Shown: in pieces, positions 13,393 to 59,489 of the stretch | Layout of the letters: each line of letters opens with the position of its first letter | How positions within the stretch are numbered: position 1 is the first letter of the stretch | Source of the DNA: Candidatus Melainabacteria bacterium SSGW_16 | GTDB lineage: Bacteria; Cyanobacteriota; Vampirovibrionia; 2-02-FULL-35-15 | Direction: 5' to 3' | DNA: 64,000 nt | NCBI GenBank assembly: GCA_004769085.1 | Contig: DUDS01000019.1 | Coordinates: forward strand, 446-64,445 | The notes under the pieces: model-generated | What the model saw: the letters and a program-made list of their open reading frames with translations, nothing else | What the model was told of the DNA's origin: nothing | The model's database searches: none | Program-made: the position numbers and the translations under genes

Positions 13393-14274
13393 ATGAAAGA
13401 AGTTGAAGTACCAGACTATTTTACCCCTAATCCTAAAAGGCCACTGGAGGCTGACAGGCTTATTGAATTTTTAAGGAAGTTCTGGGGTTATTTCTTAACT
13501 GCAATTTTTTTACTTATGTTTCTCTCAGGATCTATAGTCAGGGTGGGTGCCGGAGAGAGAGCAGTACTCTTCAATATTTTTGGTGGTGTTGAAAAAAGAA
13601 TTCTGGGTGAAGGAATTCATATAATTGCCCCATTCATTCAGAAAGCAACTGTCTATGACGTAAAACAAGCAACTTACAGTTTTGCATCTGAAGATCAAAA
13701 CAGTCAGGGACATATTGTAGGTGGGGAAATTCATTCCCTAACCTCAGATGGTCAGAAAGTAGATATCGAATTAAGTGTTCGCTTAAGACCTGTTCCTGAT
13801 AAATTATGGTTGCTCCACAAGCACATAGGACCTAATTACCTTTATAAAATTGTAGTTCCAAAAACAAGAACTGTTTTAAGAGAAGTTCTTGCTGCTTACC
13901 CTGTTGAAGATGTTTATAGCGGAAAAAGGCAGGAGATACAAAACATGATTCAGGATTTTCTTAAAAAAGATCTTGAAAAAAAATATTTCATTGAGGTTGA
14001 AGAAATTCTATTCAGGAATGTAAAGTTTTCAAAGGAATTCCAGGATGCAATCGACAGAAAACAGCAGGCATATCAGGAATTCTTAAAAATGGAATATGTA
14101 GTTGCTGGAGAACGCGCGAAAAAAGATGCAAAAATATCACAAGCTGAGGGCGAAGCCAAAGCAATTAATCTCAGAGTAAATGCATTAAGATCAAATCCTG
14201 ACTTTATAAGGTACAGAAGAGCACAGGTTTTTGGAAAACGGGCAAAACTTATCTTCACAGATAATTTTGATTAA
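13393..14274 (+). CDS. SPFH/band-7 (prohibitin/HflK-C-like) membrane protein
   Basis: N-terminal TM helix followed by VRVGAGERAVLFNIFGGVEKRILGEGIHIIAPFIQKATVYDVKQATYSF, a PHB-domain core. Confidence 0.8.
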   Translation: MKEVEVPDYFTPNPKRPLEADRLIEFLRKFWGYFLTAIFLLMFLSGSIVRVGAGERAVLFNIFGGVEKRILGEGIHIIAPFIQKATVYDVKQATYSFASEDQNSQGHIVGGEIHSLTSDGQKVDIELSVRLRPVPDKLWLLHKHIGPNYLYKIVVPKTRTVLREVLAAYPVEDVYSGKRQEIQNMIQDFLKKDLEKKYFIEVEEILFRNVKFSKEFQDAIDRKQQAYQEFLKMEYVVAGERAKKDAKISQAEGEAKAINLRVNALRSNPDFIRYRRAQVFGKRAKLIFTDNFD

Positions 14275-14292
14275 GGAGAGAAACCCATTAAA

Positions 14293-15162
14293 ATGGAAAA
14301 AGAAAATCTCATAGCAATAGGAATGGCAATAACCTTTTCATTGTTTTGTATCTTAAGCGGTTCAATGATAAGAGTAATTCCAGCCGGTTATGTTGGTGTT
14401 GCATTTAATTTGTTTGGTGGTGTTGAGAAAAGAATACTGAATGAAGGAGTTAACTTTTTAATTCCATTTGTTGAATCTGTAACAGTATATGATGCCAGGA
14501 AAATCTCATATAACTTTTCCGACAATTACGACAAATCCATTGTAGGTCCAAGTATCAAATGCCAGACAAATGACGGTCAGAATGTTTCAATCGATGTAAC
14601 AGTAATAGCACATATAAACAAAGAGAAAGCATGGAACCTCCACCAAAGTATAGGAAGAGACTATGGAGAAAGATTAATCGTACCTCAAACCAGAAGTATT
14701 TTCCGAAATATAGTTGCAAAATACCCGATTGATACGGTGTACACTTCAGGAAGAACAGGGCTTGCAAGAGATGCTGAAGACTCACTCAAGCAGTCATTTC
14801 TAAAAAGCGGGCTACAGCTGGATGAGTTATTAATCAGAGCAATAGGTTTTTCACCTTCATTTGCTGAAGCTGTTGAAAGAAAACAGATCGCGCTTCAGGA
14901 ATCACAAAGACAAAACTGGATTAAAAAAACTGCTGAAAGAGAAAAAGAAAGAAAAATTATTGAGGGAGAAGGAGATGCAATTGCAGTTAGTGTAAAAGGA
15001 ATGGCACTTCAGCTTGATCCAAAGATTGCAGAGCTTGAATTTCTTGAGCAGTTGGATCAGAGGAATACTGAGATTCAGGTTATTACAGGCACTAAAAGTG
15101 CAATTCTTTCTATAGGCGAACTTTTTAATAATCCTACAAATGAACTGCCAAAGAAAGAATAA
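14293..15162 (+). CDS. SPFH/band-7 protein, tandem paralog
   Basis: IRVIPAGYVGVAFNLFGGVEKRILNEGVNFLIPFVESVTVYDARKISYNF, same architecture as the upstream gene. Confidence 0.8.
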   Translation: MEKENLIAIGMAITFSLFCILSGSMIRVIPAGYVGVAFNLFGGVEKRILNEGVNFLIPFVESVTVYDARKISYNFSDNYDKSIVGPSIKCQTNDGQNVSIDVTVIAHINKEKAWNLHQSIGRDYGERLIVPQTRSIFRNIVAKYPIDTVYTSGRTGLARDAEDSLKQSFLKSGLQLDELLIRAIGFSPSFAEAVERKQIALQESQRQNWIKKTAEREKERKIIEGEGDAIAVSVKGMALQLDPKIAELEFLEQLDQRNTEIQVITGTKSAILSIGELFNNPTNELPKKE

Positions 15163-20283: not shown

Positions 20284-20727
20284 ATGTCATTCAAATATCG
20301 TTTAGAAAAAGTCCTGAAGATTCGAGAAGAACAACTCGATGAAGCAATACTTAAAATGAAAAAAGCAGAAGAAAATCTTAAATCCATTTCATACGATCTC
20401 AGTGTAACAACTGAACACAGAAATGATCTTCATACTGAACTTATAAAAGAGGGATTATCACATGCAACTCTCTACGTAAGAAGGATTAAGCAACTGAATG
20501 AAAGAATTGCAAAATTAGAAAAAGATCTTCAGTCCGCACAAGATGCACTTATTAAGGCCAAAGAAGATGTAATCGAAGCAAAGATGAAACTTGAAGCTCT
20601 GAAAAAACATAAACAGAAAAAATACAGTGATTATATAAATGAAGAAAACAGAAAAGAAAGACTTATGCTGGATGAAATTGGTGTACTAAAGCACACAAGA
20701 GAGCTGATAGAAAGTAGGGAGGAATAA
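20284..20727 (+). CDS. fliJ: Flagellar export chaperone FliJ-like coiled-coil protein
   Basis: 147 aa, entirely coiled-coil (YRLEKVLKIREEQLDEAILKMKKAEENL). It lies upstream of FliK-like and rod-protein genes. Confidence 0.5.
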   Translation: MSFKYRLEKVLKIREEQLDEAILKMKKAEENLKSISYDLSVTTEHRNDLHTELIKEGLSHATLYVRRIKQLNERIAKLEKDLQSAQDALIKAKEDVIEAKMKLEALKKHKQKKYSDYINEENRKERLMLDEIGVLKHTRELIESREE

Positions 20728-21519
20728 GTGGCTGGACCAATAATACAACCTGGCGACACAAAAGCCTTCAGACTTGGAATAAGTTTGCTTGATAATCCTT
20801 ATGTAAAACCTGCCAGTGCACTAAGCTTTGAAGAAGTACTGGATAGCAAAACAAAAGAGGTTACAGAAAAAGTAAAAGATGAGACTGTTAAAACCTCGGA
20901 AGAAACTTCTGACACGAAAAACAAGAAGTTAGACAGAAACTCAAAAGATGAACTTTTTAACATTAATAAGATAGTTCAAAATGACAGAAACCAAGGTGCT
21001 GAATTAAAAAACACATACACATTATTAAAGCAGTTTAAACAAAACAGGAAATCCTATGAGGAAGAGTCTTCAAAAGGATCAAGACACAACACTCTAACCA
21101 ATGTATACAACGCTGCAGGACAACCCCAAATACAAGCGACTTACGAAAGAGGATCACAGAGAAGAATGTCAAAATCACAACTTCTCAATTTGTGGGAAAA
21201 AGTAGCTCCATGGATAACAGAAGACGCAATGAAGAAATCAATTAGGGTTGACATTCCATTGGTAAATGACATACAAGCCCTCGTACTTAGAATGCACCCG
21301 GACAAAAGTGTAACAGCATCACTTCTGGGATCAGAAGAGATGGGAAAACTAATCAAAGAAAACAAAGACAAGCTTGACAGAAACCTAAAGCATCACAAGC
21401 TCTCATTAAGGGAATTTAATACCTATCATTCAGAGCTTACATTTAATTCGGAATCCGGAACAAAGAAACAAAAGAAAAAAGCAAAAATAGGTGACAAGAA
21501 ACAGGTAGATTTAATTTAA
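20728..21519 (+). CDS. Flagellar hook-length control protein FliK-like
   Basis: The C-terminal region IRVDIPLVNDIQALVLRMHPDKSVTASLLGSEEMGKLIKEN resembles the FliK Flg_hook domain (LRLQLHPEELGRV...). It sits between fliJ and a rod/hook gene. Confidence 0.45.
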   Translation: MAGPIIQPGDTKAFRLGISLLDNPYVKPASALSFEEVLDSKTKEVTEKVKDETVKTSEETSDTKNKKLDRNSKDELFNINKIVQNDRNQGAELKNTYTLLKQFKQNRKSYEEESSKGSRHNTLTNVYNAAGQPQIQATYERGSQRRMSKSQLLNLWEKVAPWITEDAMKKSIRVDIPLVNDIQALVLRMHPDKSVTASLLGSEEMGKLIKENKDKLDRNLKHHKLSLREFNTYHSELTFNSESGTKKQKKKAKIGDKKQVDLI

Positions 21520-21541: not shown

Positions 21542-22426
21542 ATGTTTAACTCAACAACAATATCAGCAAATGCAGCCCAGTCATCACTGGAATTGATTGA
21601 CATACTGTCAACAAACATAATCAATTCAGAAGCCCCTGGTTTCAACAGCAAAAGATTTTCATTTCATGATTATCTTACAGGTGGACAGGTAGAAATTAAT
21701 GGTAATTCATGGAGACAAGGGAAAAAAATTGTCAGAGTGGGTGAGCCAACCAAAATGATGCTCTCAGGAAAAGGCTTTTTTACAACTGTAAATCCACAAA
21801 ACAATGAGATCCTTTATACAAGGCTTGGTGATTTTAATTTTGACAGAAGCGGTTACCTCGCAACACAGGAAGGTTTTCTTCTTTTAGGAACACCTTTGAT
21901 ATCAAATGTACAGCCAAAAGGTGGTAACTCACAGTACAAAACTCCAGGAGCAAAATATGATATTTCTACATTTGTGGATCCTTTTAATAATCCTTTAAAC
22001 AGAGAGCATCCACAGGCAGATCAGGGAGCAGCACTAGGTGGCCCACAGCCAATTAATCTGGCAGTTGATCCAACAAACGGACTATACCTGGGCAAATATG
22101 AAAAAATAAGAATTGATGAATCAGGTGTGGTTTGGGGAAGATACGGTGATAGTGAAGTATCCCTCTATAAAATTACACTTAATAATTTTCAAAATCTAAA
22201 TGGATTGAAAAATTTCCGCGACACATACTGGAAGCAAACTTCAGAAAGCGGTGCCCCGCTTCCGTGCAGTGCAACAGTATTCAATGAAGCTTTAGAAAAA
22301 TCAAATGTATGGGCAAAGGTCGAGGTTGATTACATTATTGAAGCTCAAAGACAATATTCCGCTGCAATAAATGCTCACAAGGTAGCAGACAGACTGATGC
22401 AGCAAGCAATTGAACTTGTTGGTTAA
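21542..22426 (+). CDS. Flagellar basal-body rod / hook family protein (FlgF/FlgG-like)
   Basis: The N-terminal motif LSTNIINSEAPGF matches flg_bb_rod. The C-terminal SNVWAKVEVDYIIEAQRQYSAAINAHKVADRLMQQ matches the FlgG C-terminal motif (SNVDLxxEMVNMIxAQRxYEANSK). Confidence 0.7.
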   Translation: MFNSTTISANAAQSSLELIDILSTNIINSEAPGFNSKRFSFHDYLTGGQVEINGNSWRQGKKIVRVGEPTKMMLSGKGFFTTVNPQNNEILYTRLGDFNFDRSGYLATQEGFLLLGTPLISNVQPKGGNSQYKTPGAKYDISTFVDPFNNPLNREHPQADQGAALGGPQPINLAVDPTNGLYLGKYEKIRIDESGVVWGRYGDSEVSLYKITLNNFQNLNGLKNFRDTYWKQTSESGAPLPCSATVFNEALEKSNVWAKVEVDYIIEAQRQYSAAINAHKVADRLMQQAIELVG

Positions 22427-24154: not shown

Positions 24155-24658
24155 ATGCCACCCAGAACACCACAAAGAAGACCACAAATAGCTAGAACAA
24201 GAGGAAGCGATCCTACAGTAAGTATTGCAAGTGCTGCTGCTGCTAAAACCCAGCTTGCAAATGAAACAGAAGTATTCCCAGAACAACAAAACGCCCAGCC
24301 TAAAGAACAAAAGCAGCAGGCAAATGATGATCTCAAAAAATTAATTGAAACACTTAAAAACAAACTTGGAAATGGTCCGGCAGGTCAAGTGCAGAAAAAA
24401 GTACCACCTCAGCCATCGCGTGCTCCATGGAACAGAAGCATAGAAGAAAAACAGGATAAAAATGAAACTGGCTGGAAACCTGCATACACAGTTCTCACAA
24501 GAATTTCAAACCATGAAAAAGTACCTGTAAAGAATGTAAAATCTGCAGAAGTTACATTAAATTCACTTCCACACTCATTCATTTACAAGCCAGGCATAGA
24601 TGGAATTAAAGTTGATAAACTCCAGGTCAAACCAGGTAAACAAATCTGTATGGGCTAG
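24155..24658 (+). CDS. Hypothetical protein (basic/Gln-rich, low complexity N-terminus)
   Basis: AGGA about 8 nt upstream of the ATG and a reasonable amino-acid composition. No recognisable domain. The overlapping minus-strand ORFs are Cys/Phe-rich and look spurious. Confidence 0.4.
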   Translation: MPPRTPQRRPQIARTRGSDPTVSIASAAAAKTQLANETEVFPEQQNAQPKEQKQQANDDLKKLIETLKNKLGNGPAGQVQKKVPPQPSRAPWNRSIEEKQDKNETGWKPAYTVLTRISNHEKVPVKNVKSAEVTLNSLPHSFIYKPGIDGIKVDKLQVKPGKQICMG

Positions 24659-38883: not shown

Positions 38884-40053
38884 TTAAGAAAAATAAGCAG
38901 AATTAAGTTTTACATAATCAAAACTCAAATCACATCCAAATGCTAGTCCTAATGCTTTGCCAAGTTTAAGATTTACAGTTAACTTAACTTCTTTAGATTG
39001 TTTTATTTCTTTATTAAGTTTGTTTTTATTAAACTCCACTGGTGTTCCATTTTTAAATACAAGTGTTTTATTTATAGAAATTTCAATTCTATTCTGATTA
39101 ACTAAAACACTTGTAGCACCAATTCTTGCTGCAGCACGACCCCAGTTAGGATCAGATCCAAATATTGCACATTTAAAAAGATTTGAACTTGCTATTGATC
39201 TTGCAATTTCATTTGCATCTTTTTGTGATTTTGCACCATTTACATACACTGTGATTACCTTATTTGCACCCTCACCATCAGCAACTATTTCTTTTGCAAG
39301 TTTAAGACATTGCTCATTTAATATTTTCTTGAAATTTGAAAATAAAGGGTCGTTTTTTTTTGTTATTTTCTTTTTACCGTGGCAATTTGAAAGAAGTATA
39401 ACCATATCATTTGTGCTCATATCACCATCTACTGATATAAGATTAAAGCTATTTTCTACAGCAGATTTTAATGCACTTTGTAACATAAGCTGTGATGCAT
39501 TAATATCAGTCATAAAGTAACAAAGCATTGTTGCCATATTTGGATGAATCATTCCTGCGCCTTTTGTAAACCCAACAATACTAAAGTCTTTCGTTTGCTT
39601 TTTAATAGTCTTTAGATATCTGTCAGTCGTAAGAATTGCTTTTGCTGCATTTTTTAAATTCCTAACATTTAATTTTGGTACAGCAGCAACTATTCCTTTT
39701 TCCATCTTCTCCATATCCAGATGAACCCCGATAACACCAGTACTTGCAACAAGCACTTCACTAGACTTTATTTTTAATATCCTGGCTGTTATTTCTCTGG
39801 TCTTTCTAACAGCATTTATACCTCTTTTACCTGTACAGGCATTTGCATTTCCAGAATTAACAACTATTGCCCTGATTTTTTGTTTTTTCTTTAATAAAAT
39901 CCTGTTTTCATCTACGCAGGCTGCACGAACTTGGTTTGTAGTAAAAACCCCTGCATAAACACATGGAACTGGTGAATAAATTAATGCCAGATCCGGCTTT
40001 CCTGTCCGTTTAAACCCACATGTAGCAGATGAATATAAAAAATGTGACTTCAT
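38884..40053 (-). CDS. argJ: Bifunctional glutamate N-acetyltransferase / amino-acid acetyltransferase
   Basis: GFKRTGKPDLALIYS, the ATMLCYFMTD self-cleavage/active-site Thr region, and 389 aa. Confidence 0.85.
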   Translation of the reverse strand: MKSHFLYSSATCGFKRTGKPDLALIYSPVPCVYAGVFTTNQVRAACVDENRILLKKKQKIRAIVVNSGNANACTGKRGINAVRKTREITARILKIKSSEVLVASTGVIGVHLDMEKMEKGIVAAVPKLNVRNLKNAAKAILTTDRYLKTIKKQTKDFSIVGFTKGAGMIHPNMATMLCYFMTDINASQLMLQSALKSAVENSFNLISVDGDMSTNDMVILLSNCHGKKKITKKNDPLFSNFKKILNEQCLKLAKEIVADGEGANKVITVYVNGAKSQKDANEIARSIASSNLFKCAIFGSDPNWGRAAARIGATSVLVNQNRIEISINKTLVFKNGTPVEFNKNKLNKEIKQSKEVKLTVNLKLGKALGLAFGCDLSFDYVKLNSAYFS

Positions 40054-40350
40054 GAATTTACATCCATTATGCTATCATTTTTGTAAGCCAATGGAAAAAA
40101 CTAAACTTATATTTTTCAGGGATTTTCTTTTCAGATATTTTATCACTGGTCTTTTCTTTGCAATTCTTATGTTTTCTATAACGAAATTTTTCTGGTTCAA
40201 GTGGTCATATTTTATCTGTTCAAGTTTTCAGTTAACCCAAAGCGAACTTGGCAGTCTTGTTGTAAATTCATTTTTGCAATTCAGATTCTTTCTGGTTTTT
40301 TTACTACTTGTACCTGCAATAGCACTTCATTGGACCATTAAAAGAAAACA

Positions 40351-40716
40351 CTAATCAGACACGCATACAGCATACAGTTCATGTGTAAACATATTATGTC
40401 TTCCCTGGCAATGCCTGCCAGAACCTTGTGGGCAATCATTATTACAAATCTCATCAGGTAATATTGGATCCTGAATAACACATTCAGGCGGAATACATGC
40501 AGGAGGGTCTTGGAATTGTGCTGGAGGTTGGGGAGTTGGCTTTTTGCCTTTTTTCTTTTTCCTATCCATCAAGTGTCCTTCAGGTTCATCTTCTTCTGGT
40601 GATACAGTCCTGTCATAGTGATATTTTTTCAAATCCTGTGCAGATGCCTGAAGTTGCATAAATGGTGCACTAAGTACAAAAGAGAGAAATATAATGGCAA
40701 AAGACTTTCCAAGCAT
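40351..40716 (-). CDS. Small secreted protein with K/G-rich basic tract and C-terminal 6-Cys domain
   Basis: Signal peptide MLGKSFAIIFLSFVLSAPFMQLQASA; ...RKKKKGKKPTPQPP...PACIPPECVIQDPILPDEICNNDCPQGSGRHCQGRHNMFTHELYAVCVSD. Confidence 0.5.
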   Translation of the reverse strand: MLGKSFAIIFLSFVLSAPFMQLQASAQDLKKYHYDRTVSPEEDEPEGHLMDRKKKKGKKPTPQPPAQFQDPPACIPPECVIQDPILPDEICNNDCPQGSGRHCQGRHNMFTHELYAVCVSD

Positions 40717-40795
40717 AACTTAAATATTCCCATCACTTGTTATAGGAATCTAAAATTCATACATATAGCTTAATAGGGGTATCCCGACAGGAATA

Positions 40796-41236
40796 CTAAT
40801 CAGGGACACAGACAGCAATATTTTCCTCACCAACTCTTATATCTTTTCTTCCCTGACAATGGGAATCAGCTTTACACTTGTTTTCGCACTCATTAGCTGA
40901 TAATGGGTCCCTAAGGATAGTACAAACTGGTGGATCACATGGAAATAACGGTGGTGAAACCGGGCTATTAATAACACTATTTTGATCCGGATAAAATTCA
41001 TCAAAATCATTTGCTCCAAAAGCATCTGTATCTATACCGCTGCCTTTTTTCCCACCTTTTTTACCTCCATGTTTACCCTTTTTTCTTTCCATATCAGCCG
41101 AATCATAACCTGTTCTTGCATTTAATGAACCATCTTTAGTATTGTTATAGCCATCATAAAATTTAAATTCACCTGCACTAACTGTCAAAGCAGCAACACC
41201 AAACAATAAAAAAATTGTCGTATAAAATACCCTCAT
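40796..41236 (-). CDS. Small secreted protein, tandem paralog with the same C-terminal 6-Cys domain
   Basis: Signal peptide MRVFYTTIFLLFGVAALTVSA; RKKGKHGGKKGGKKGSG; ...FPCDPPVCTILRDPLSANECENKCKADSHCQGRKDIRVGEENIAVCVPD. Confidence 0.5.
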   Translation of the reverse strand: MRVFYTTIFLLFGVAALTVSAGEFKFYDGYNNTKDGSLNARTGYDSADMERKKGKHGGKKGGKKGSGIDTDAFGANDFDEFYPDQNSVINSPVSPPLFPCDPPVCTILRDPLSANECENKCKADSHCQGRKDIRVGEENIAVCVPD

Positions 41237-41454
41237 TAATTAATGATATTCCTTATTTTTTCAGGGTTAAAACTTAAATTTCACTAATACAGAAATAGTA
41301 ATGCCCCTAATGGAAATCCCTAAGTCCAAAAAGGTCCTGTTTTCAAATCAATGTTTACATTTTTGATTCCTTGAAAATGCTCTTAATTAAGGATTAATCC
41401 TGAAAATTTTACATATAGCACAAAATTATAAAAATTTCGTCTATTATTCTCCAT

Positions 41455-42237
41455 ATGGCTTTTGATATAAACAAACTTTCAAAAAGAGAAAAAATGCTGG
41501 TTGGTGTTCTGATTTTAGCAGTTTCTACAGTCCCATTTTTTCAGCTTACAATACCTGCATGGAATAAATATAACGAATTCAATACAAAAATAAAAGAACT
41601 ACAGAATAAATTGTTTGAAACCGGAAGTAAAATTAAAAAACTTGAAAGATTAAAATCTGAGAATCAGAAAATGCTCAAGAAAGTAGAAGGTCAAAAAATT
41701 TATCTTGCAAAATCGTATGAGATTGATTTTCTTGTCCAGGATCTGAAAAAAATATGTGATGAGAGTCTTATAAGCCTTGAAAGCTTTACACCAACAAACC
41801 CCGAACCAGTAAACATTGTTCTTGAAAAACAACTTGAAGCTGACAGTGCAGGTGGACAAAGAAATAAACTAAAAGAAGCACTGGAAAAACTAAAAGGACA
41901 GGATTTACCTATTGACTTATATCGCTTTCCTGTAGAAGTAAGAGTTGCAGGAAACTTTTCAGAAGTACTTGAGCTTTTAAAAAAACTGGAAACTTACGGC
42001 AGAGTAATCTCTGTAGAAAATATTTCAATTGGGAAAATCCAGTCAAAAGATTTTGGCGGGGGGAACAGACTCTCAAAATCAAAATCCAAAAAGAAGGCGG
42101 AAACAGGTGGTTTATTAAGCACATTTGATCTTGTAGCGTATAGCCTTCCCTTAAGTGATGAAAAAATTCCTGTAAAACAATTACAGAAATCGCTGGGTGC
42201 AAAGTCTTCCTTTTCAATTAAAAAAACCAATCGCTAA
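41455..42237 (+). CDS. Membrane-anchored coiled-coil protein with PilO/GspM-like C-terminal domain
   Basis: N-terminal TM, coiled coil, then LPIDLYRFPVEVRVAGNFSEVLELLKKLETYGRVISVENISIGK, which resembles PilO C-terminal regions. No other pilus genes are nearby. Confidence 0.4.
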   Translation: MAFDINKLSKREKMLVGVLILAVSTVPFFQLTIPAWNKYNEFNTKIKELQNKLFETGSKIKKLERLKSENQKMLKKVEGQKIYLAKSYEIDFLVQDLKKICDESLISLESFTPTNPEPVNIVLEKQLEADSAGGQRNKLKEALEKLKGQDLPIDLYRFPVEVRVAGNFSEVLELLKKLETYGRVISVENISIGKIQSKDFGGGNRLSKSKSKKKAETGGLLSTFDLVAYSLPLSDEKIPVKQLQKSLGAKSSFSIKKTNR

Positions 42238-46283: not shown

Positions 46284-46871
46284 ATGCATGTATTAGTAAT
46301 AGATAACTACGACAGTTTTACTTATAACCTTGTTCAATACATAGGTGAATTAAAATATGAGGTTTCAGTATTCAGGAATGATGAAATTACAATTGAAAAA
46401 ATAAAGTCATTAAATCCATGTCATATAGTAATTTCACCCGGTCCAGGAAGGCCTGACGATGCAGGAATCAGCAAATCAATAATAAAAGAACTTGCCGGAA
46501 AAATACCAATACTTGGAGTATGTCTTGGACATCAGTGCATTGGTGAAGTATATGGCGGAAAAATAACTAATGCACCTGAACTTATGCATGGGAAAACTTC
46601 AGATATTCATCATTCAGGAGATTCAATATTTTCAGATATTCCAAGCCCTTTTACAGCGACCAGGTACCATTCATTAATTGTTGATTTAAAAAGTATTGAA
46701 AAAAGTCCTTTAAAAATAACTGCAAAAACAAAAGACAATCTTATAATGGCTCTTGAACATAAGGAATTTAACAGCCTTATTGGTGTACAATTTCATCCTG
46801 AATCAATTCTTACTGAGCACGGACATAAACTACTGACTAATTTCTTAAAGTTAAAAGGAATCAAATCATGA
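46284..46871 (+). CDS. Glutamine amidotransferase class I: anthranilate/aminodeoxychorismate synthase component II
   Basis: MHVLVIDNYDSFTYNLVQYIGELKYEVSVFRNDE; PILGVCLGHQ catalytic Cys; FHPES. Confidence 0.8.
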   Translation: MHVLVIDNYDSFTYNLVQYIGELKYEVSVFRNDEITIEKIKSLNPCHIVISPGPGRPDDAGISKSIIKELAGKIPILGVCLGHQCIGEVYGGKITNAPELMHGKTSDIHHSGDSIFSDIPSPFTATRYHSLIVDLKSIEKSPLKITAKTKDNLIMALEHKEFNSLIGVQFHPESILTEHGHKLLTNFLKLKGIKS

Positions 46872-47359
46872 GGACATTATTAAAATATTTATTGTTTATT
46901 TTATTTCTTGCAATATCTCTAAATATCCCGGCAAACGCACTATTAGATAAGGACAAAGACATTGCCAGGAAAAACCCAAACAGCGCTTTTGCAGAAGGAC
47001 TTACACAAAACCCAAGATATAAAGTCACTGAAGATGACAGAGTTTTTGCACGGAACAATCCACAAACAAGATTTGCCAAAACAATAGCGGCAAACCCAAA
47101 TTATATTGTAGATCTGCCAGACAAAACATTTGCAATGAAAAACCCCGACAGTGCTTTTGCTGAAGGACTTGCACAAAATCCTACTTATCTAATCAGAAAT
47201 GAAGACAAAGAATTTGCAAGAAGTAATCCAAATACAAAGTTTTCAGAATTCCTGGTTACAAATCCTGCTTATATAATTGAACCTGCAGACAGGGAATTCG
47301 CAAGAAACAACCCTGATACAAAAGCAGCATATGGGATTGCCAAGAATCCAAGTCATTAA
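46868..47359 (+). CDS. Secreted protein made of about five ~28-aa repeats (D-K/R-x-F-A-R-x-NP-x-S/T-x-F-A-E-x-L-x-x-NP-x-Y)
   Basis: Signal peptide MRTLLKYLLFILFLAISLNIPANA, then DKDIARKNPNSAFAEGLTQNPRYKVTE / DDRVFARNNPQTRFAKTIAANPNYIVDLP / DKTFAMKNPDSAFAEGLAQNPTYLIRNE / DKEFARSNPNTKFSEFLVTNPAYIIEPA / DREFARNNPDTKAAYGIAKNPSH. Confidence 0.55.
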   Translation: MRTLLKYLLFILFLAISLNIPANALLDKDKDIARKNPNSAFAEGLTQNPRYKVTEDDRVFARNNPQTRFAKTIAANPNYIVDLPDKTFAMKNPDSAFAEGLAQNPTYLIRNEDKEFARSNPNTKFSEFLVTNPAYIIEPADREFARNNPDTKAAYGIAKNPSH

Positions 47360-49685: not shown

Positions 49686-50726
49686 ATGAGAATGTTAAAA
49701 GTTATTTTTGGTTTGCTGATATTTATTAGCATTATCCAAACAGTAAATATTCAAAATTTATTCACATCATTACCTGCTATTGCATGTCCAAGCGGTTCCA
49801 CGGCAAGTGACTGCTCGTTAAGAGGATGCTCTGGTAATGCACAATGCAAAGACAGATGTATCTGTACTCACTGTACAAATGAAACATATGGGGGTTCATG
49901 CTTTAAAGACAGTGACTGTAAAAATGGAGGTAAATGTATCGGGGGAGATAGTGAACAATGTATAGTTGGCGAATGTCGCTTTTTACCAACAACTGATGAT
50001 GATTGTTATAATTTTTGCCATGGACTAAAAGAAGGTTATCGAAATGGATTTCATTTAAAGCAAGGAGAAACTTGTACCTCAATTGGGAAAAACACTGAAA
50101 ATAAATGTCTTAATAGCAAAGAAATAAATAATTGTTGTTGTGTACCCTGCAAAGATAATGATAATAGCTGTCATTGTGAATATGGCACAGATGAATCCGT
50201 GATTTGCTCAGCAAAAGAACATATAAATTCAGAATGCCCAAGCTATTTAAAATCTACAAATGTAAATGTCCCTGATCCCCCCATAACTTATAAAAGAGAC
50301 TGCAGTACAAATGATCATGGATATTGTGGATATTGCTCTTGTCCAGAAAATAATAATAATATATGCATAAGTACATGTTCACATCAAGGTTGTATATCAG
50401 ATATTTGTGAAATAGCAAATCATGAAATGGGTCATTGGTGGGATTGTTTCACAAATAGAACTGGATCTAATTCTGATTCTGCTTGCACCGGAATAAAAAA
50501 CCATGTAGTAATTGAAAATGCTACCTATAATGACTGTATTGAAAGAAATCAATTCCCTTCCGATTGTAATGATACGAAAAATAGACTTATAAATTATTGC
50601 AATAATTACTGTAGTAATAAATGTCCCTTCAGTAATGAGGTAAAACTTATTTGTGAAAAGTTTGGAATAACCTGTGGTTCTGCTGCCTCTGGAGCTGGAG
50701 CTGCAGTTCCAATGCCAACCCCATAA
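49686..50726 (+). CDS. Secreted, extremely cysteine-rich protein (about 50 Cys in 346 aa), unknown function
   Basis: Signal peptide MRMLKVIFGLLIFISIIQTVNIQN. There are dense CxxC, CC and CxC patterns, several N-x-S/T sites, a G/A-rich C-terminus, and no recognisable domain. It is bounded by the 23-bp direct repeats. Confidence 0.55.
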   Translation: MRMLKVIFGLLIFISIIQTVNIQNLFTSLPAIACPSGSTASDCSLRGCSGNAQCKDRCICTHCTNETYGGSCFKDSDCKNGGKCIGGDSEQCIVGECRFLPTTDDDCYNFCHGLKEGYRNGFHLKQGETCTSIGKNTENKCLNSKEINNCCCVPCKDNDNSCHCEYGTDESVICSAKEHINSECPSYLKSTNVNVPDPPITYKRDCSTNDHGYCGYCSCPENNNNICISTCSHQGCISDICEIANHEMGHWWDCFTNRTGSNSDSACTGIKNHVVIENATYNDCIERNQFPSDCNDTKNRLINYCNNYCSNKCPFSNEVKLICEKFGITCGSAASGAGAAVPMPTP

Positions 50727-50745: not shown

Positions 50746-51903
50746 CTAAACCCTCTCAATAACAGCAGCAATTCCCTGACCAAATCCTATACAAAGACTG
50801 GACACGCCTCTCTTTAGATTTCTTCGTTCAAGTTCATGCAACAAAGTAGTAATCAGCCTGGCACCACTAGCCCCCAAAGGATGCCCGATAGCAATTGCAC
50901 CACCGTTTACATTTACTTTATCTGCAGGAATACTTAGTTCTCTCTGAGCTGCAAGAACAACAGATGCAAATGCTTCATTTATTTCAAATAAATCTATATC
51001 CTTCATTTCAAGTCCTGATTTTTTCAATGCCTTGGGAATTGAATAAATTGGTCCTGTAAGCTGAAGTTCTACATCAGTACCCACTACTGAAAAACCCAAA
51101 AACTTTGCCCTTGGTTTAAAACCATATTTCTTTACAGCACTTTCACTTGCTATTAATAGTGCAGAAGCTCCGTCACTAACCTGGCTGGCATTGGCTGCTG
51201 TAATAACTCCGCCTTCTTTAAAGGCAGGTGCTAAAGTACCCATTTTCTCAATGGATGTATCACTTCTGATTCCTTCATCCTTTTCAATCAGTCCCTTGGA
51301 AGTACTAACAGGAATAATTTCTTTTTTGAAAAATCCTTTGCCTGTTGCAATAGCAGCTTTCATGTGACTTTCATATGAAAACTCATCCAGATCCCTTCTG
51401 CTTAATTTCCATTTTGCAGCCATTAATTCTCCGGAAATTCCCATTGGATTTGCTTTAAAATTCTTTAAAAAACTATCTGGTAAAGTTGGTTTTGTTTTGC
51501 CTGGCATGGGAAACCCATCACCACCAAGTGGAATTTTTCCCATGCTTTCTACGCCACCTGCTATAAGAAGATCATGAGCACCAGCCATTACAGCCTGAAT
51601 CGCAAAATGAATTGCCTGCTGCCCTGATCCACACATTCTGTTTAGCTGGACGCCCGGCACAGTAATATCAAGAGCTGTTATTGCAATAAGCCTGGCAATA
51701 TTTAATCCCTGCTCAGCAACAGGACTTGCACAACCATAAATTAAATCCTCAATATCAGTTGGTTTTAGATTATTTCTTTTAACTAATTCTTTTACAGGTA
51801 TCCCTCCAAGATCCACTGGATGAACTTCAGCAAAAACACCTGTATCTTTTCCACGACCAATCGGTGTTCTTATTGCATCAATAATATAAGCTGCATTTGA
51901 CAT
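50746..51903 (-). CDS. Thiolase (acetyl-CoA C-acetyl/acyltransferase)
   Basis: [15 protein letters not shown]...[21 protein letters not shown] and the catalytic Cys region [12 protein letters not shown]. Confidence 0.85.
50747..50769. repeat. 23-bp direct repeat copy 2 (within thiolase 3' coding end)
   Basis: Perfect match to 49604-49626, 1143 bp apart. Confidence 0.85.
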
Positions 51904-52000
51904 TTTTATTTCTTTCTGGTTTTAGAAAACATTAATAGTTTACTCTAAGATTATAAAAATGTAACTACTCAGTATATATATAAAAAACAAAGTGAAATTT

Positions 52001-53227
52001 TTAAACTCTTTCAAAGATAATAGCTATAGCCTGTCCACCGCCAATACACAGTGTTACCAATCCATATCGGGATGGAAGCCCTTCATCTGCTCTTTTATGC
52101 ATCTCATGTAATAGAGTTACAGGAAGCCTTGTCCCACTTGCTCCTAATGGATGTCCTAAAGCAATAGCGCCACCGTTTACATTTACTTTTTCAGGATCTA
52201 TGCCAAGTTCTTCTATTGTTGCAAGTGCAACAGATGCAAATGCTTCATTTATTTCAAATAAATCTATATCTTTAATTTTCATATTAGCTTTTGCAAGAAC
52301 TTTTCTTACAGCATCTATTGGTCCAATTAAATGTTCTGCAGGTTTTTGAGAATCTGTTTTTACTACAGCAGAGGCAACAATCCTCGCCATAGGAACAAGA
52401 TCATGTTCTTTAAGTGCCTGTTCACTAACGACTAAATACCCTGCAACACCAGCACTAATCTGACTGGAAGTAGCAGCAGTATGCAGACCAAACCTGCCAA
52501 ATGAAGGCTTGAGTTTTTTAGATAAAACTTCAAGCGAAGTATCAGATCTTATCCCTTCATCAAAATCAAGATACCCTCTCGGTGTTCTGACTGTAACTAT
52601 TTCGTCTTTAAATCTTCCATTCTGCATTGCATAAGCTGCCTTCATCTGGCTAAAAAAACCGTATTCATCAAGCATTTTCCTGGAATATCCACGGCTTGTT
52701 GCTATGGCATCACCATAAGCTCCCATTGGTAATAGTGAATACCCTTCCGGAAGAGAAAGTTTAACAACCGATGCACCCATTGCAACAATCTTTCTAAGAT
52801 TTTTTAAATTCCCGCCAAGAGTATTTGATGCAGGCATTAAATCCTGTCCCTGGAAAACTCTGTGATTATTTTCTACCCCCATTACAAGCACTATTTCATT
52901 TTCACCGCTTGCAATTTGAGCCTGAGCTAATCGGGTAGCCTGTGCACTGGAACCACATAAATCATTAATTGTTGTTGCATGAACAAACGGACCAAATGCT
53001 AATTCACCAATTCTTGTAGCCATGTTACATCCCTGTTCACCAGTTTGAGTAGCACAGCCTACAAAAAGTTCATTAATGTACTTTGGATCTAAATTTGCCC
53101 TGTTAACTATTTCTTTTGCAACTGTAACACCAAGAGTTTCAGGTTTTACCCTAGAGAAAAGTCCACCTTTAGCACTAGTTGCTGTTCTGAGAGGTCCCAC
53201 AAGAAATGCTGATCTTACTTCAGGCAC
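52001..53227 (-). CDS. Thiolase paralog
   Basis: [52 protein letters not shown] active-site region. Confidence 0.8.
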   Translation of the reverse strand: MPEVRSAFLVGPLRTATSAKGGLFSRVKPETLGVTVAKEIVNRANLDPKYINELFVGCATQTGEQGCNMATRIGELAFGPFVHATTINDLCGSSAQATRLAQAQIASGENEIVLVMGVENNHRVFQGQDLMPASNTLGGNLKNLRKIVAMGASVVKLSLPEGYSLLPMGAYGDAIATSRGYSRKMLDEYGFFSQMKAAYAMQNGRFKDEIVTVRTPRGYLDFDEGIRSDTSLEVLSKKLKPSFGRFGLHTAATSSQISAGVAGYLVVSEQALKEHDLVPMARIVASAVVKTDSQKPAEHLIGPIDAVRKVLAKANMKIKDIDLFEINEAFASVALATIEELGIDPEKVNVNGGAIALGHPLGASGTRLPVTLLHEMHKRADEGLPSRYGLVTLCIGGGQAIAIIFERV

Positions 53228-56418: not shown

Positions 56419-56781
56419 ATGGGGAATAATCCCACCTTAACTACAGGTTCAAGTATTCTTCTGTCAAAACTAAGTGCAATAAGAGACCAGCTATTTCTGG
56501 CTAAAAGAGATATTTTTGAACTTGAAAGCCTTTACTTATATTTAGCTATGGGTTCACCAAATAGTAAAATTATGGGTTCTGATAGTCCCTCACTGGCATT
56601 TTTTTACGATATAACCAAGATTCGGGAAAGGCTTTCAGACACATTAGATACAAGGAATTTCCTTGAAATGGATGAAAGTACATACCTCTCAATGATTAAA
56701 AGTATGTATGCTCAGACGGGGCCGGCGGGAGCCGAAATAGTCAATTTAGCTCGTATTCATAATTATGTTCCGATAAGCTGA
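56419..56781 (+). CDS. Hypothetical protein
   Basis: 120-aa ORF with a good SD (aagggggtcgctATG) and no recognisable motif. It is preceded by about 310 bp of AT-rich non-coding DNA. Confidence 0.4.
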   Translation: MGNNPTLTTGSSILLSKLSAIRDQLFLAKRDIFELESLYLYLAMGSPNSKIMGSDSPSLAFFYDITKIRERLSDTLDTRNFLEMDESTYLSMIKSMYAQTGPAGAEIVNLARIHNYVPIS

Positions 56782-58439: not shown

Positions 58440-59489
58440 TTAATTATAATTCCCACTTACAGCAGACGATTGTACTAATGATCTTGCTATACGAAAAGCA
58501 CTGGAAAAATTCTGATCACTATATATATCATTTAAATATGGAATTAACAGTTTTCTTGCATAAGAACCAACAGCTATTCCGTTAACCGGAAGGCCAGAGT
58601 TTTTTACATTGTCAAAAGAAAACTCTGTGGTACCGCCTGCAATCTGCAAATATACAGGCATTTTTTCTTCCTCTATAAGCTTTGCTACATGAAGGCTCAA
58701 TTCATCATTATTATGCCCGTTTTTACCTGCATTACTCCTGCCGCCACTCATGGGAATACCATCACACTGCAAGATAATATTACTCCCTGCAAGCTCAAAA
58801 CAAAGCCTAGCTGCATCCTTGATTTCAATATCACTTAATAAGCCACTTCCAAGGCTAAATGAAACCAGTTCAAGTTTCTTTACTAAATCTTTAATTTTGT
58901 CCCATATTTCCCTGATTCTTAAATAGTTTTTCCCAAAATGAAACTCAATTGATTTAAGGCCTAGAAGGAGCATATCATTTAAAGTATTATAAGGATCCAT
59001 TTTCACTTCAGTCATATTTAGCGCTTTTACATGGCAATATGAAGGACAGATACCACAGCCATAACATCTTTCTTTATTGTAAATAAAATCTTTCACTCCT
59101 TCATTTTCGTTAATTTTAAATGCTTCCGTAGGACAGACTTTTACACAAGCTCCACATACATCACACAAGTTTCTGTCTACTTCTACTTTTCTGAAATGTG
59201 GATCAAGATCAAGCTGGATGCTTGCCATTAGAAGAGGTGGTTTCAAATTATATTTAAATCTTTTATCCTTTTTACCAAACTCAATAGCTTTTTCAACACC
59301 ATTTTTTGCTGCAATAACAATATCTGCATGCGGAGCCAGATCAATAACATGTGCACCGGCTAAAGTAAAAATAAACGACAAATTTTCAACAAGTACATTA
59401 TCAGTAAAACTAGCTCCACAAATAAGTTTAAAGAAACTTTTATTTCCTAGTGCTTCGAAAACATGGTTTTCTTTTTTAAGAGTCAGCAT
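58440..59489 (-). CDS. 4Fe-4S dicluster ferredoxin-domain protein
   Basis: CDVCGACVKVCP and CYGCGICPSYC motifs. The flanking domains are unassigned. Confidence 0.45.
   Translation of the reverse strand: MLTLKKENHVFEALGNKSFFKLICGASFTDNVLVENLSFIFTLAGAHVIDLAPHADIVIAAKNGVEKAIEFGKKDKRFKYNLKPPLLMASIQLDLDPHFRKVEVDRNLCDVCGACVKVCPTEAFKINENEGVKDFIYNKERCYGCGICPSYCHVKALNMTEVKMDPYNTLNDMLLLGLKSIEFHFGKNYLRIREIWDKIKDLVKKLELVSFSLGSGLLSDIEIKDAARLCFELAGSNIILQCDGIPMSGGRSNAGKNGHNNDELSLHVAKLIEEEKMPVYLQIAGGTTEFSFDNVKNSGLPVNGIAVGSYARKLLIPYLNDIYSDQNFSSAFRIARSLVQSSAVSGNYN

What the first reader, a model, noticed from the sequence alone, without database searches (positions are those of the whole stretch)
40351..41236. 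Tandem pair of small secreted proteins with a shared novel 6-cysteine C-terminal domain and lysine/glycine-rich basic tracts
Two adjacent minus-strand genes (121 and 146 aa) each encode three parts. First a signal peptide. Then an acidic or variable region ending in a basic K/G-rich stretch (RKKKKGKKPTPQPP / RKKGKHGGKKGGKKGSG). Last a C-terminal domain with identical cysteine spacing and conserved residues: C-x-PP-x-C-x-I-x-DP-x4-5-C-x-N-x-C-x3-5-HCQGR-x7-8-AVCV-x-D. The pattern resembles disulfide-knotted secreted effectors, toxins or bacteriocin-like peptides. I do not recognise the family.
Basis: seen in the sequence. Interest (0 to 1): 0.6.

Follow-up and report, generated by a model that had tools for sequence, protein, structure and literature searches.

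The report
New secreted six-cysteine protein pair
Two neighbouring genes in an uncultured groundwater Melainabacterium (a non-photosynthetic relative of cyanobacteria) encode small exported proteins that share a previously undescribed six-cysteine mini-domain; the family is real and conserved but confined to one bacterial lineage, and its function is still unknown.

Summary
Genes A (40796..41236, minus strand, 146 aa) and B (40351..40716, minus strand, 121 aa) are real paralogues. Each has a Sec-type signal peptide, a disordered acidic arm carrying one short polybasic island, and a C-terminal domain of about 47 residues with six invariant cysteines.

An exhaustive profile search found 17 relatives among 50%-identity cluster representatives. 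All are 98-170 aa and share this architecture. Every locus with enough flanking sequence puts them in the same place: pilO-like gene | Cys gene(s) | small convergent 2-TM gene | argJ.

The host is a groundwater Melainabacterium (GyrA 84-89% identical to named MAGs). Purifying selection is strong (domain dN/dS 0.05-0.08).

Pfam, NCBIfam, PADLOC, PHROGs, PDB sequences, PDB folds and viral folds gave no significant match. AlphaFold2 predicts a confident three-stranded beta mini-domain (pLDDT 85) and a disordered N-terminal arm.

My best reading (about 0.4) is a vertically inherited, non-enzymatic envelope or extracellular binding protein. The basic island would hold it on anionic polymers or mark a processing site. 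The toxin/bacteriocin reading is weakened by the acidic domain and core-genome setting, but the always-adjacent small membrane protein keeps it alive.

It is a new family of moderate interest.

The parts
40796..41236 (-). Gene A (146 aa): signal peptide, disordered acidic arm with a polybasic island, conserved acidic/aromatic linker, and C-terminal 6-Cys domain.
   Evidence: ORF. Orthologues at 56-82% identity, P0002-P0004. dN/dS against the L002 orthologue is 0.11. AlphaFold2 full-length model: signal-peptide helix 2-18, residues 28-95 at pLDDT below 50, strands 105-112, 125-132 and 139-145.
41174..41236 (-). Signal peptide of A (residues 1-21, predicted cleavage VSA|GE).
   Evidence: Read directly from the sequence. 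Hydropathy. Helix at pLDDT 81-89. No signal-peptide predictor was available.
41045..41086 (-). Polybasic island of A (R51-K64, RKKGKHGGKKGGKK).
   Evidence: A basic island of net +5 to +10 is present at the equivalent position in all 21 members tabulated. Most of them show a hydrophobic-Leu-x-x lead-in.
40799..40939 (-). 6-Cys domain of A (C100-D146).
   Evidence: Pairwise E = 2e-7 to B. Family alignment A3. AlphaFold2 domain model pLDDT 85.4, pTM 0.59. Domain dN/dS 0.046.
40717..40795 (-). 79-bp A-B spacer; A and B are probably one transcription unit.
   Evidence: No terminator-like site in 39900..41600. The spacer is only 10 bp in L093. Co-transcription is inferred, not shown.
40351..40716 (-). 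Gene B (121 aa): same layout as A, with a short Pro-rich linker.
   Evidence: ORF. Orthologues P0006 and P0007 at 63-66% identity. More distant B-type copies P0010, P0015 and L093:6233-6637. dN/dS 0.18.
40639..40716 (-). Signal peptide of B (residues 1-26, predicted cleavage ASA|QD).
   Evidence: Sequence and hydropathy.
40540..40563 (-). Polybasic island of B (R52-K59, RKKKKGKK).
40354..40497 (-). 6-Cys domain of B (C74-D121).
   Evidence: Domain dN/dS 0.081.
40091..40354 (+). Conserved small membrane protein (87 aa, two hydrophobic segments). It converges on B and overlaps B's stop codon by 4 nt. It is a possible partner; the association is positional only.
   Evidence: An intact ORF starting MEK[TQK]KL... 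is present in L002, L003, L084, L086, L087, L093, L094 and L095. Identity to the window copy is 44-60% in the four loci measured (L084, L087, L093, L094). dN/dS 0.11 and hydropathy. No Pfam, NCBIfam, PADLOC or PHROGs hit. It was not called as a gene in L001 or L002.
41237..41454 (.). Divergent intergenic region between A and the pilO-like gene. It should hold A's promoter.
   Evidence: Promoter-like hexamers are no more frequent than in shuffled sequence. The only block conserved in six lineages abuts the pilO-like start codon.
41455..42237 (+). pilO-like gene (260 aa), the invariable divergent neighbour. It is context, and is not shown to be functionally linked.
   Evidence: Pfam PilO 42.8 bits (cut-off 22), with weak T2SSM/GspM hits. 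It is the neighbour in the window and L001, L002, L084, L088, L091 and L093, and in the P0021 contig.

Best explanation
A and B are real, probably co-transcribed paralogues of a new protein family. The family is restricted to one family- or order-level clade of groundwater Melainabacteria.

Shown here:
- Each precursor has a Sec-type, SPase-I-type signal peptide.
- The mature protein (about 95-125 residues) has a predicted disordered, net-acidic arm carrying a single polybasic island of 8-12 residues.
- It ends in a compact domain of about 47 residues with six invariant cysteines and an invariant C-[QE]-G-R motif.
- AlphaFold2 models that domain as a three-stranded antiparallel beta mini-domain.
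- The genes are vertically inherited at one core-genome locus and are under strong purifying selection.

Inferred:
- After export, the domain is locked by three disulfides in the periplasm.
- The protein then acts in the envelope or outside the cell as a non-enzymatic binding protein. The Cys domain is the specific recognition module, with the invariant Arg as a candidate contact.
- The polybasic island either holds the protein electrostatically on anionic envelope polymers (LPS, exopolysaccharide, DNA) or is a multibasic processing site that releases the domain.
- A and B have sub-functionalised (their clade-specific beta2-beta3 sequences differ) or act together.
For: - Real genes. Orthologues exist for both. 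dN/dS is 0.11 for A and 0.18 for B, and 0.046 and 0.081 for the domains. Four neighbouring genes (pilO-like, argJ, rplM, UDG) give 0.08-0.16.
- Family and architecture. The profile search found 17 cluster representatives at 50% identity, all 98-170 aa, with the domain always C-terminal. The layout of signal peptide, acidic segment (-2 to -13 in 20 of the 21 members tabulated, 0 in P0015), basic island (+5 to +10), linker (+1 to -8, net acidic in all but three) and acidic domain (0 to -10) is kept in all members. Two apparent exceptions are miscalled start codons.
- Export. Signal peptides are present, with no lipobox and no further hydrophobic segment.
- Fold and disorder. The domain model has pLDDT 85.4 with strands at 14-21, 34-41 and 48-54. 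In the full-length model residues 28-95 fall below pLDDT 50.
- Core-genome, vertical inheritance. The same locus (pilO-like | Cys gene(s) | small TM | argJ) is seen wherever flanks are available, in lineages whose L13, ArgJ and PilO proteins are only 58-69% identical to the window's. The A+B pair is kept in L002, L003 and the more distant L093. All of the window's surroundings that were annotated are housekeeping genes. There are no viral relatives.
- Non-enzymatic. The domain is only about 47 residues, and no catalytic family matched.
Against: - No experimental or homology-based functional evidence exists. The binding role, the ligand and the cellular location are inferences from architecture alone.
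- Disulfide formation is assumed. Neither the pairing nor the host's oxidative-folding machinery was examined.
- The conserved adjacency of a small membrane protein and the prepro-like layout (signal, acidic piece, multibasic site, Cys domain) fit a processed toxin or peptide just as well.
- Low dN/dS was measured on one orthologue pair, with pS about 0.5-0.6, which is near saturation.
- K-rich tracts arise easily in a 34% GC genome, although their fixed position in every member argues for function.
Confidence: 0.4

Rival explanations
1. Secreted antimicrobial or toxic peptides, defensin- or bacteriocin-like. The precursor would be cut at the multibasic site, releasing the disulfide-rich C-terminal domain. 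The adjacent small 2-TM protein would be the immunity or self-protection factor.
For: - The proteins are small, exported and Cys-rich, with a signal / acidic pro-piece / multibasic tract / Cys-domain layout.
- A small hydrophobic protein is encoded immediately downstream in every locus where the region is sequenced.
- That protein evolves about as fast as the Cys proteins: 44-60% identity against 33-56%, compared with 58-69% for housekeeping neighbours.
- The family has duplicated and diversified into four clades.
- Bacterial cis-defensins with acidic N-terminal tails exist (PMC11561630).
Against: - The released domain would be acidic (net 0 to -10). Most membrane-active peptides are cationic (general knowledge).
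- The family fails the cis-defensin pattern in 21 of 22 sequences.
- It is fixed at one core locus across family- or order-level divergence, and the domain is under strong purifying selection (dN/dS 0.05-0.08). It does not show the patchy, mobile, fast-evolving pattern usual for bacteriocins.
- The TM gene is on the opposite strand, not co-transcribed.
- No export or processing transporter or modification enzyme is nearby.
Confidence: 0.2
2. A periplasmic or secreted tight-binding inhibitor of a hydrolase (protease, lysozyme or lytic transglycosylase). A rigid disulfide-locked loop would be presented to the enzyme: either the C1-x4-C2 'C-D-P-P-x-C' loop or the invariant C-Q-G-R segment with Arg as a P1-like residue.
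For: - It is a small disulfide-rich exported domain with an invariant Arg next to a Cys, and a Pro-rich C-x(3-5)-C segment. No closed loop is shown, because the disulfide pairing is unknown.
- The bacterial lysozyme and lytic-transglycosylase inhibitor Ivy is defined by a conserved CKPHDC motif, which has the same C-x4-C spacing (PMC3660660).
- Strong purifying selection and a core-genome location suit a housekeeping protective inhibitor.
Against: - No sequence or fold match to any inhibitor family. WAP scores E = 0.38 in 1 of 21 members. No Kazal, Kunitz, BBI, Ivy or other inhibitor family appears in the Pfam scan. Foldseek against PDB gave nothing below E = 1.
- The C1-C2 loop varies in length (3-5 residues) and in sequence (CDPPVC, CEDEC, CDASVQC). 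That is unusual for a reactive loop.
- The model places C-Q-G-R inside a beta strand.
Confidence: 0.15
3. A cargo or accessory of the type IV pilus / type II secretion-like machinery. One option is a folded periplasmic substrate expelled by the pseudopilus. Another is a periplasmic DNA- or polymer-binding factor that uses the K-rich tract and works with the PilO-like protein.
For: - The divergent neighbour is a PilO/GspM-like protein in every locus with upstream sequence.
- T2SS substrates are Sec-exported and fold, with disulfides, in the periplasm (general knowledge).
- K/G-rich tracts bind polyanions such as DNA (general knowledge).
Against: - The whole block thiE-rnd-rpsI-rplM-pilO-like | Cys | argJ-udg is syntenic. 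Adjacency therefore carries little specific information.
- The parts of the window that were annotated hold no other pilus or secretion genes.
- No co-occurrence test outside this clade was possible.
Confidence: 0.1
4. Spurious ORFs, or a chance cysteine pattern in AT-rich DNA.
For: The genome is 34% GC and throws up many short ORFs.
Against: Pairwise E = 2e-7. There are 17 cluster representatives at 50% identity with invariant cysteines. dN/dS is 0.05-0.18. Synteny is conserved. The AlphaFold2 domain model is confident.
Confidence: 0.01

Closest known systems
Bacterial cis-defensins (CS-alpha-beta; five classes described in PMC11561630)
   Same: They are small, signal-peptide-bearing, three-disulfide bacterial proteins. 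Several classes have an unstructured, acidic and hydrophobic N-terminal tail before the Cys domain. A C-x3-C pair is present. The domain-only model has strand, short helix, strand, strand.
   Different: - The terminal C-x-C is missing, so the defining pattern CX(2,18)CX(3)CX(2,12)CX(4,17)CXC fails in 21 of 22 members.
- There is no conserved G-x-C gamma-core.
- The 'helix' is four residues in one model and absent in the other.
- The scan of all 21 members against Pfam-A listed no defensin family among its weak hits.
- The domain is acidic.
- No Cyanobacteria or Melainabacteria are among the reported bacterial defensin producers.
Eukaryote-type prepro cysteine-rich peptides (signal, anionic pro-piece, multibasic site, Cys-rich mature domain)
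   Same: The order of the parts and the opposite-charge blocks.
   Different: This is an analogy from general knowledge only. No kexin- or furin-type processing is known for this bacterium. The presumed mature domain is acidic, not cationic. Cleavage has not been shown.
Ivy (inhibitor of vertebrate lysozyme) and other periplasmic disulfide-loop inhibitors
   Same: It is an exported bacterial protein with a short C-x4-C motif (CKPHDC in Ivy, PMC3660660; C-[DEN]-P-P-x-C here).
   Different: No sequence similarity, and no Ivy hit in the Pfam scan. No His in the loop. Loop length varies from 3 to 5 residues. The domain is one third of Ivy's size (Ivy's size is from general knowledge).
WAP four-disulfide-core domain (PF00095)
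   Same: It is the only Cys-rich Pfam family with any score: E = 0.38, 11.5 bits, over 19 residues of A.
   Different: The score is below the 20.8-bit cut-off, it appears in 1 of 21 members, and this domain has six cysteines rather than eight. Treated as noise.
EGF-like domains (best Foldseek TM match: Spitz EGF, 3ca7)
   Same: Six cysteines, small and beta-rich. TM-score 0.45 over 41 columns.
   Different: E = 2.0 and probability 0.25, which is noise level. The hallmark C-x-C of EGF (general knowledge) is absent. No EGF family appears in the Pfam scan.

Membership tests
Cis-defensin / CS-alpha-beta | Cysteine pattern CX(2,18)CX(3)CX(2,12)CX(4,17)CXC (the selection pattern used in PMC11561630) | tested here: not met
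   The regular expression matches 1 of 22 family proteins. That one is P0015, and only because of an extra, non-family Cys pair.
Cis-defensin / CS-alpha-beta | Conserved G-x-C gamma-core between the beta strands | tested here: not met
   Alignment A3 has no conserved G-x-C. The residues before C5 are S-H, R-H, T-F, T-K and so on.
Cis-defensin / CS-alpha-beta | An alpha helix carrying C-x3-C, stapled by two disulfides to the last strand | tested here: inconclusive
   C-x3-C is present. The domain model shows only a four-residue helix (23-26) and the full-length model shows none. Disulfide pairing could not be read because no coordinates were returned.
Any Pfam-A / NCBIfam family (including WAP, Kazal, Kunitz, EGF, defensins, knottins, bacteriocin families) | A score at or above the curated gathering cut-off | tested here: not met
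   All 21 members were scanned one by one. No family recurs in more than 3 members, and the best E-value is 0.0041, to an unrelated disordered-region model. WAP scores 11.5 bits against a 20.8-bit cut-off in one member.
Any solved structure | Sequence-profile or fold similarity to a PDB chain | tested here: not met
Bacteriocin + immunity locus | Toxin gene with a co-transcribed immunity gene and a dedicated export or processing system, with patchy or mobile distribution | tested here: not met
   A small TM gene is adjacent, but on the opposite strand. There is no transporter or peptidase nearby. The locus is fixed in the core genome. Activity is not testable here.
Sec-exported soluble protein (SPase I substrate) | N-terminal n/h/c regions with small residues at -3 and -1; no lipobox; no twin-arginine motif | tested here: met
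   VSA|G in A and ASA|Q in B. There is a hydrophobic core and no later hydrophobic segment. Signal-peptide-like N-termini are seen across the family once two miscalled start codons are corrected. This was assessed by eye and hydropathy; no SignalP-type predictor was available.
Type IV pilus / T2SS component | Homology to a pilin, pseudopilin or assembly protein | tested here: not met
   A and B have no such hits. Only the neighbouring gene is PilO-like.
Phage or defence-system protein | A match to PHROGs or PADLOC models, or relatives on viral contigs | tested here: not met
   No hits.

The most novel reading that the evidence does not exclude
The domain is a truly new disulfide-rich mini-fold. 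A/B plus the always-adjacent small membrane protein would form a Melainabacteria-specific secreted-effector module. One version is a processed, non-cationic toxin with its own membrane immunity protein. Another is a cell-surface or host/prey-directed effector whose polybasic tract acts as a cell-penetrating or polyanion-binding address. Either version would be the first functional handle on how these uncultured, non-photosynthetic relatives of cyanobacteria interact with other cells.
Probability: 0.15. Interest if true: 0.65.

Novelty: new variant of a known kind. Interest (0 to 1): 0.38.

Why it matters
Melainabacteria (Vampirovibrionia) are the closest non-photosynthetic relatives of cyanobacteria and are almost entirely uncultured. 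Their lineage-specific exported proteins are the likeliest clues to how they deal with their surroundings.

This family gives three things:
- a compact domain of about 47 residues with six cysteines and no detectable relative in Pfam or the PDB, so it is a candidate new mini-fold and a stable scaffold;
- a strictly conserved 'acidic arm + single polybasic island + Cys domain' layout, which is a testable design;
- a fixed three- or four-gene micro-locus (Cys gene(s) plus an unannotated small membrane protein) that gene callers partly miss.

If the function turns out to be ordinary envelope biology, the value is mainly as an annotation: a new domain-family entry. If it is an effector/immunity pair, it would be of wider interest.

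Tried and rejected
- **Family libraries.** Pfam, NCBIfam, PADLOC and PHROGs scans of A, B and all 21 family members gave nothing at or near threshold.
- **GTDB representative genomes.** The pattern scan found no relative. This is probably because the patterns were narrow and the MAGs carrying the family are not species representatives. It is not evidence of absence. The second genome scan went on GyrA, to identify the organism, with only 1-kb flanks. The syntenic pilO/argJ junction in the four nearest named MAGs therefore could not be inspected.
- **Word-indexed search.** Run with the 20-sequence domain profile, it returned only one protein. The exhaustive search is the informative one.
- **Metagenome scan.** It added four short loci and no new context type.
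- **Viral contigs.** None.
- **RNA and expression signals.** Rfam found nothing in the window. The promoter and terminator scan found nothing above the shuffled background.
- **Metal site via the 'HCQGR' His.** Rejected, because the His is not conserved.
- **Lipoprotein or Tat export.** Rejected from the sequence.
- **N-terminal motif docking on the domain.** The full-length AlphaFold2 model gives no support; the arm is at low confidence throughout.
- **Further paralogues in the window.** None.
- **Literature.** Searches for Melainabacteria plus cysteine-rich proteins found nothing relevant.
Full report

Yes.

Both begin with a typical Sec signal:
- A: MRVFYTTIFLLFGVAALTVSA|GEF
- B: MLGKSFAIIFLSFVLSAPFMQLQASA|QD

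Each has a basic n-region, a hydrophobic core and small residues at -3 and -1. Neither has a lipobox cysteine or a twin-arginine motif, and there is no hydrophobic segment after residue 35.

BLASTP of A against B aligns only the C-terminal 50 residues, at 42% identity and E = 2e-7.

- The C4-C5 spacing is 5 residues in A and 7 in B. The C5-C6 spacing is 15 in A and 14 in B.
- The His of 'HCQGR' is not conserved in the wider family.

A profile scan of all six reading frames found no further copy in the 64-kb window.

**2. Which organism, and what surrounds the genes?**

The window is 31-38% GC. Its GyrA is 84-89% identical to four groundwater MAGs named 'Candidatus Melainabacteria bacterium', and only about 60% identical to Gastranaerophilales or other Cyanobacteria-labelled MAGs. 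Melainabacteria are the non-photosynthetic sister group of Cyanobacteria, first described from gut and aquifer samples (PMC3787301).

The genes around the locus are housekeeping:
- downstream on the minus strand: argJ, a uracil-DNA glycosylase, lpxB, rarA and gyrA;
- on the other side: a pilO-like gene, rplM, rpsI, an RNase D-like gene and the thiamine genes.

The more distant annotated parts of the window hold amino-acid and cofactor biosynthesis genes, flagellar genes and an LdpA-like gene. I saw no mobile element, transporter or modification enzyme. Rfam found nothing.

**3. Does the family recur?**

The word-indexed searches found only close relatives: 56-82% identity for A and 63-66% for B.

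An exhaustive HMMER search with a seven-sequence profile of the C-terminal domain, run against 1.84 billion cluster representatives, found 17 proteins at E <= 1e-3, ten of them at E <= 1e-10. All are 98-170 aa, and the domain is always at the C-terminus.

All of them repeat the same layout:
- a signal peptide;
- a short aromatic motif ([YF]-x-[FY]);
- an acidic stretch;
- a basic island, usually introduced by a hydrophobic residue then Leu-x-x (for example ...HLMDRKKKKGKK, ...NLLERKKGKGKK);
- a Pro-rich or acidic linker;
- the six-Cys domain.

| Segment | Net charge |
|---|---|
| pre-basic segment | -13 to 0 (negative in 20 of the 21 members tabulated) |
| basic island | +5 to +10 |
| linker | +1 to -8 (net acidic in all but three members) |
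| Cys domain | 0 to -10 |

The signature C-x(3,8)-C-x11-C-x3-C-x(2,7)-C-[QE]-G-R-x(11,12)-C matches 21 of 22 members. The exception, P0021, departs from the family at its C-terminal end and lacks the sixth Cys.

Two members that seemed to lack a signal peptide (P0013, P0020) are miscalled starts. The upstream in-frame sequence encodes one in both cases.

No source gives any member a name. Two scans of viral contigs found no relative.

**4. Synteny**

Every locus with usable flanks shows the same arrangement:

pilO-like (divergent) | one or two Cys genes | small ORF on the opposite strand | argJ

These lineages are far apart. Their L13, ArgJ and PilO-like proteins are only 58-69% identical to the window's, while the Cys proteins are 33-56% identical.

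The domains fall into four clades: A-type, B-type, an 'RIW..YYF' type and an 'EGRHYT' type.

- The A+B tandem is present in the window, in L002 and L003, and in the more distant L093, where the second gene is a B-type protein of 134 aa.
- Other lineages carry a single copy (L084, L086, L095 and probably L091).
- L087 has an unrelated 287-aa exported PT-rich protein in the A position, followed by a B-type gene.

The family is therefore vertically inherited and bound to this locus, and the duplication is old.

**5. Selection**

These are Nei-Gojobori estimates for the window against L002.

| Gene or region | dN/dS |
|---|---|
| A, whole gene | 0.11 |
| A, Cys domain | 0.046 |
| A, signal peptide | 0.47 |
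| B, whole gene | 0.18 |
| B, Cys domain | 0.081 |
| pilO-like | 0.08 |
| rplM | 0.11 |
| argJ | 0.14 |
| UDG | 0.16 |

Synonymous differences are near saturation (pS 0.5-0.6), so the ratios are rough. They still show coding constraint as strong as in the neighbouring housekeeping genes.

**6. Structure**

AlphaFold2 on the 20-sequence domain alignment gives mean pLDDT 85.4 and pTM 0.59. It predicts strands at 14-21, 34-41 and 48-54 and a four-residue helix at 23-26.

The full-length model of A keeps the three strands (pLDDT 75-81). It shows the signal-peptide helix, and residues 28-95 fall below pLDDT 50, meaning a disordered arm.

No coordinates were returned, so disulfide pairing is not determined. 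One variant, P0015, has an extra Cys in the C1-C2 segment and another two residues before C5. This hints that those two loops are neighbours in space.

**7. Comparison with known families**

- Pfam-A (all 21 members), NCBIfam, PADLOC and PHROGs gave nothing at threshold. The only Cys-rich family with any score is WAP, at E = 0.38 in one member.
- A profile search of PDB sequences gave nothing at E <= 10.
- Foldseek gave a best E of 1.8 against PDB and 1.3 against BFVD. The best TM-score (0.45) is to an EGF domain at noise-level probability.
- The published selection pattern for bacterial cis-defensins, CX(2,18)CX(3)CX(2,12)CX(4,17)CXC (PMC11561630), is met by only 1 of 22 members, and only through an extra Cys pair. 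The G-x-C gamma-core is also absent.

The family therefore belongs to no described family I could test. It resembles bacterial defensin precursors only in general layout.

**8. The neighbour nobody called**

Between B and argJ, on the plus strand, lies an ORF whose conserved start is at 40091 (40091..40354, 87 aa). It has two hydrophobic segments.

- It is intact in eight other loci: L002, L003, L084, L086, L087, L093, L094 and L095. Identity to the window copy is 44-60% in the four loci where it was measured.
- Its dN/dS is 0.11.
- It has no family match.
- It converges on the last Cys gene with a 4-nt overlap of stop codons. Its start is 37 bp from the argJ start.
- The pipelines that produced L001 and L002 did not call it as a gene.

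**9. How it most likely works**

Shown:
- The proteins carry Sec-type signal peptides, so they are exported-type precursors.
- They have a conserved tripartite layout.
- The C-terminal domain is confidently predicted to be compact, and the arm is predicted to be disordered.
- The genes are core-genome, vertically inherited and under purifying selection.

Inferred:
- The six invariant cysteines form three disulfides after export.
- The protein is non-enzymatic, because the domain is only about 47 residues.
- It works by binding.

My preferred reading (about 0.4) is an envelope or extracellular binding protein. The Cys domain would be the specific recognition module. The single basic island, embedded in an otherwise acidic chain, would either stick the protein to anionic polymers (LPS, exopolysaccharide, DNA) or be a multibasic cleavage site.

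Rivals:
- **A processed toxin with the small TM protein as immunity (0.2).** The adjacency favours it. The acidic domain, the opposite-strand arrangement, the fixed core locus and the low dN/dS weigh against it.
- **A hydrolase inhibitor presenting a disulfide-locked loop (0.15).** The lead is the C-x4-C motif, as in Ivy's CKPHDC (PMC3660660). No fold or sequence evidence supports it.
- **A type IV pilus / T2SS-linked cargo or accessory (0.1).** It rests only on the PilO-like neighbour, and that gene is part of a long syntenic block.
- **An artefact (0.01).** Excluded by the evidence above.

**10. Verdict**

The toxin/effector interpretation is neither supported nor excluded.

This is a new, lineage-restricted family with a new small domain, belonging to a known general kind (small exported cysteine-rich proteins). 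Interest is moderate (0.38). It is a clean candidate for a new domain entry and a small structural and biochemical project. Nothing yet shows that it does something unexpected.

Noticed in passing
window 40091..40354 (+): A conserved 87-aa ORF with two hydrophobic segments lies between gene B and argJ. It converges on B with a 4-nt stop-codon overlap, and its start is 37 bp from the argJ start. It is intact in eight other loci (44-60% identity in the four measured) with dN/dS 0.11, has no family match, and was not called as a gene in two assemblies.
   Followed up: yes
window 41412..41454 (intergenic, next to the pilO-like start at 41455): This is the only block of the divergent intergenic region conserved in six lineages. 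On the plus strand it reads CACAAAA-N12/13-TCGTCTATTATT-N6-ATG. It could be a promoter very close to the start codon (a leaderless mRNA?) or an operator. The 12-mer AATAATAGACGA occurs only once in the window.
   Followed up: partly
window 41455..42237 (+): A stand-alone PilO-like gene (Pfam PilO 42.8 bits, weak GspM hits) sits directly upstream of rplM-rpsI, with no pilM, pilN or pilQ beside it. It carries its own K-rich insert (NRLSKSKSKKK), which is also present in L091.
   Followed up: partly
L087 405..1268 (+): In one lineage the 'A slot' holds an unrelated 287-aa exported protein with a long Pro/Thr-rich linker, followed by a B-type Cys gene. This suggests the slot tolerates replacement by other secreted proteins.
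   Followed up: partly
L094 118..504 (P0015): A B-type member has eight cysteines. One extra Cys lies in the C1-C2 segment and one lies two residues before C5. This probably forms a fourth disulfide and hints that the two loops are adjacent in the fold.
   Followed up: no
L084 9944..10297; L095 upstream of 150: The database proteins P0013 and P0020 have miscalled start codons. The in-frame upstream sequence supplies a normal signal peptide in both.
   Followed up: yes
window 11976..13166 (-), 20284..20727 (+), 21542..22426 (+): Flagellar genes are scattered among biosynthetic genes: FliM/N-like, FliJ, and a protein with the FlgE/F/G D1 domain. The 263-aa ORF between them (20728..21519) has no Pfam hit.
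   Followed up: no
window 58440..59489 (-): An LdpA-like Fe-S protein. LdpA is the cyanobacterial 'light dependent period' clock-input protein, here in a non-photosynthetic Melainabacterium.
   Followed up: no
window 13393..15162 (+); 50746..53227 (-): Two tandem paralogue pairs: two SPFH/Band-7 genes and two thiolase genes.
   Followed up: no
window 24155..24658 (+), 46868..47359 (+), 49686..50726 (+), 56419..56781 (+): ORFs of 120-346 aa with no Pfam match at the thresholds used. They were not examined further.
   Followed up: no
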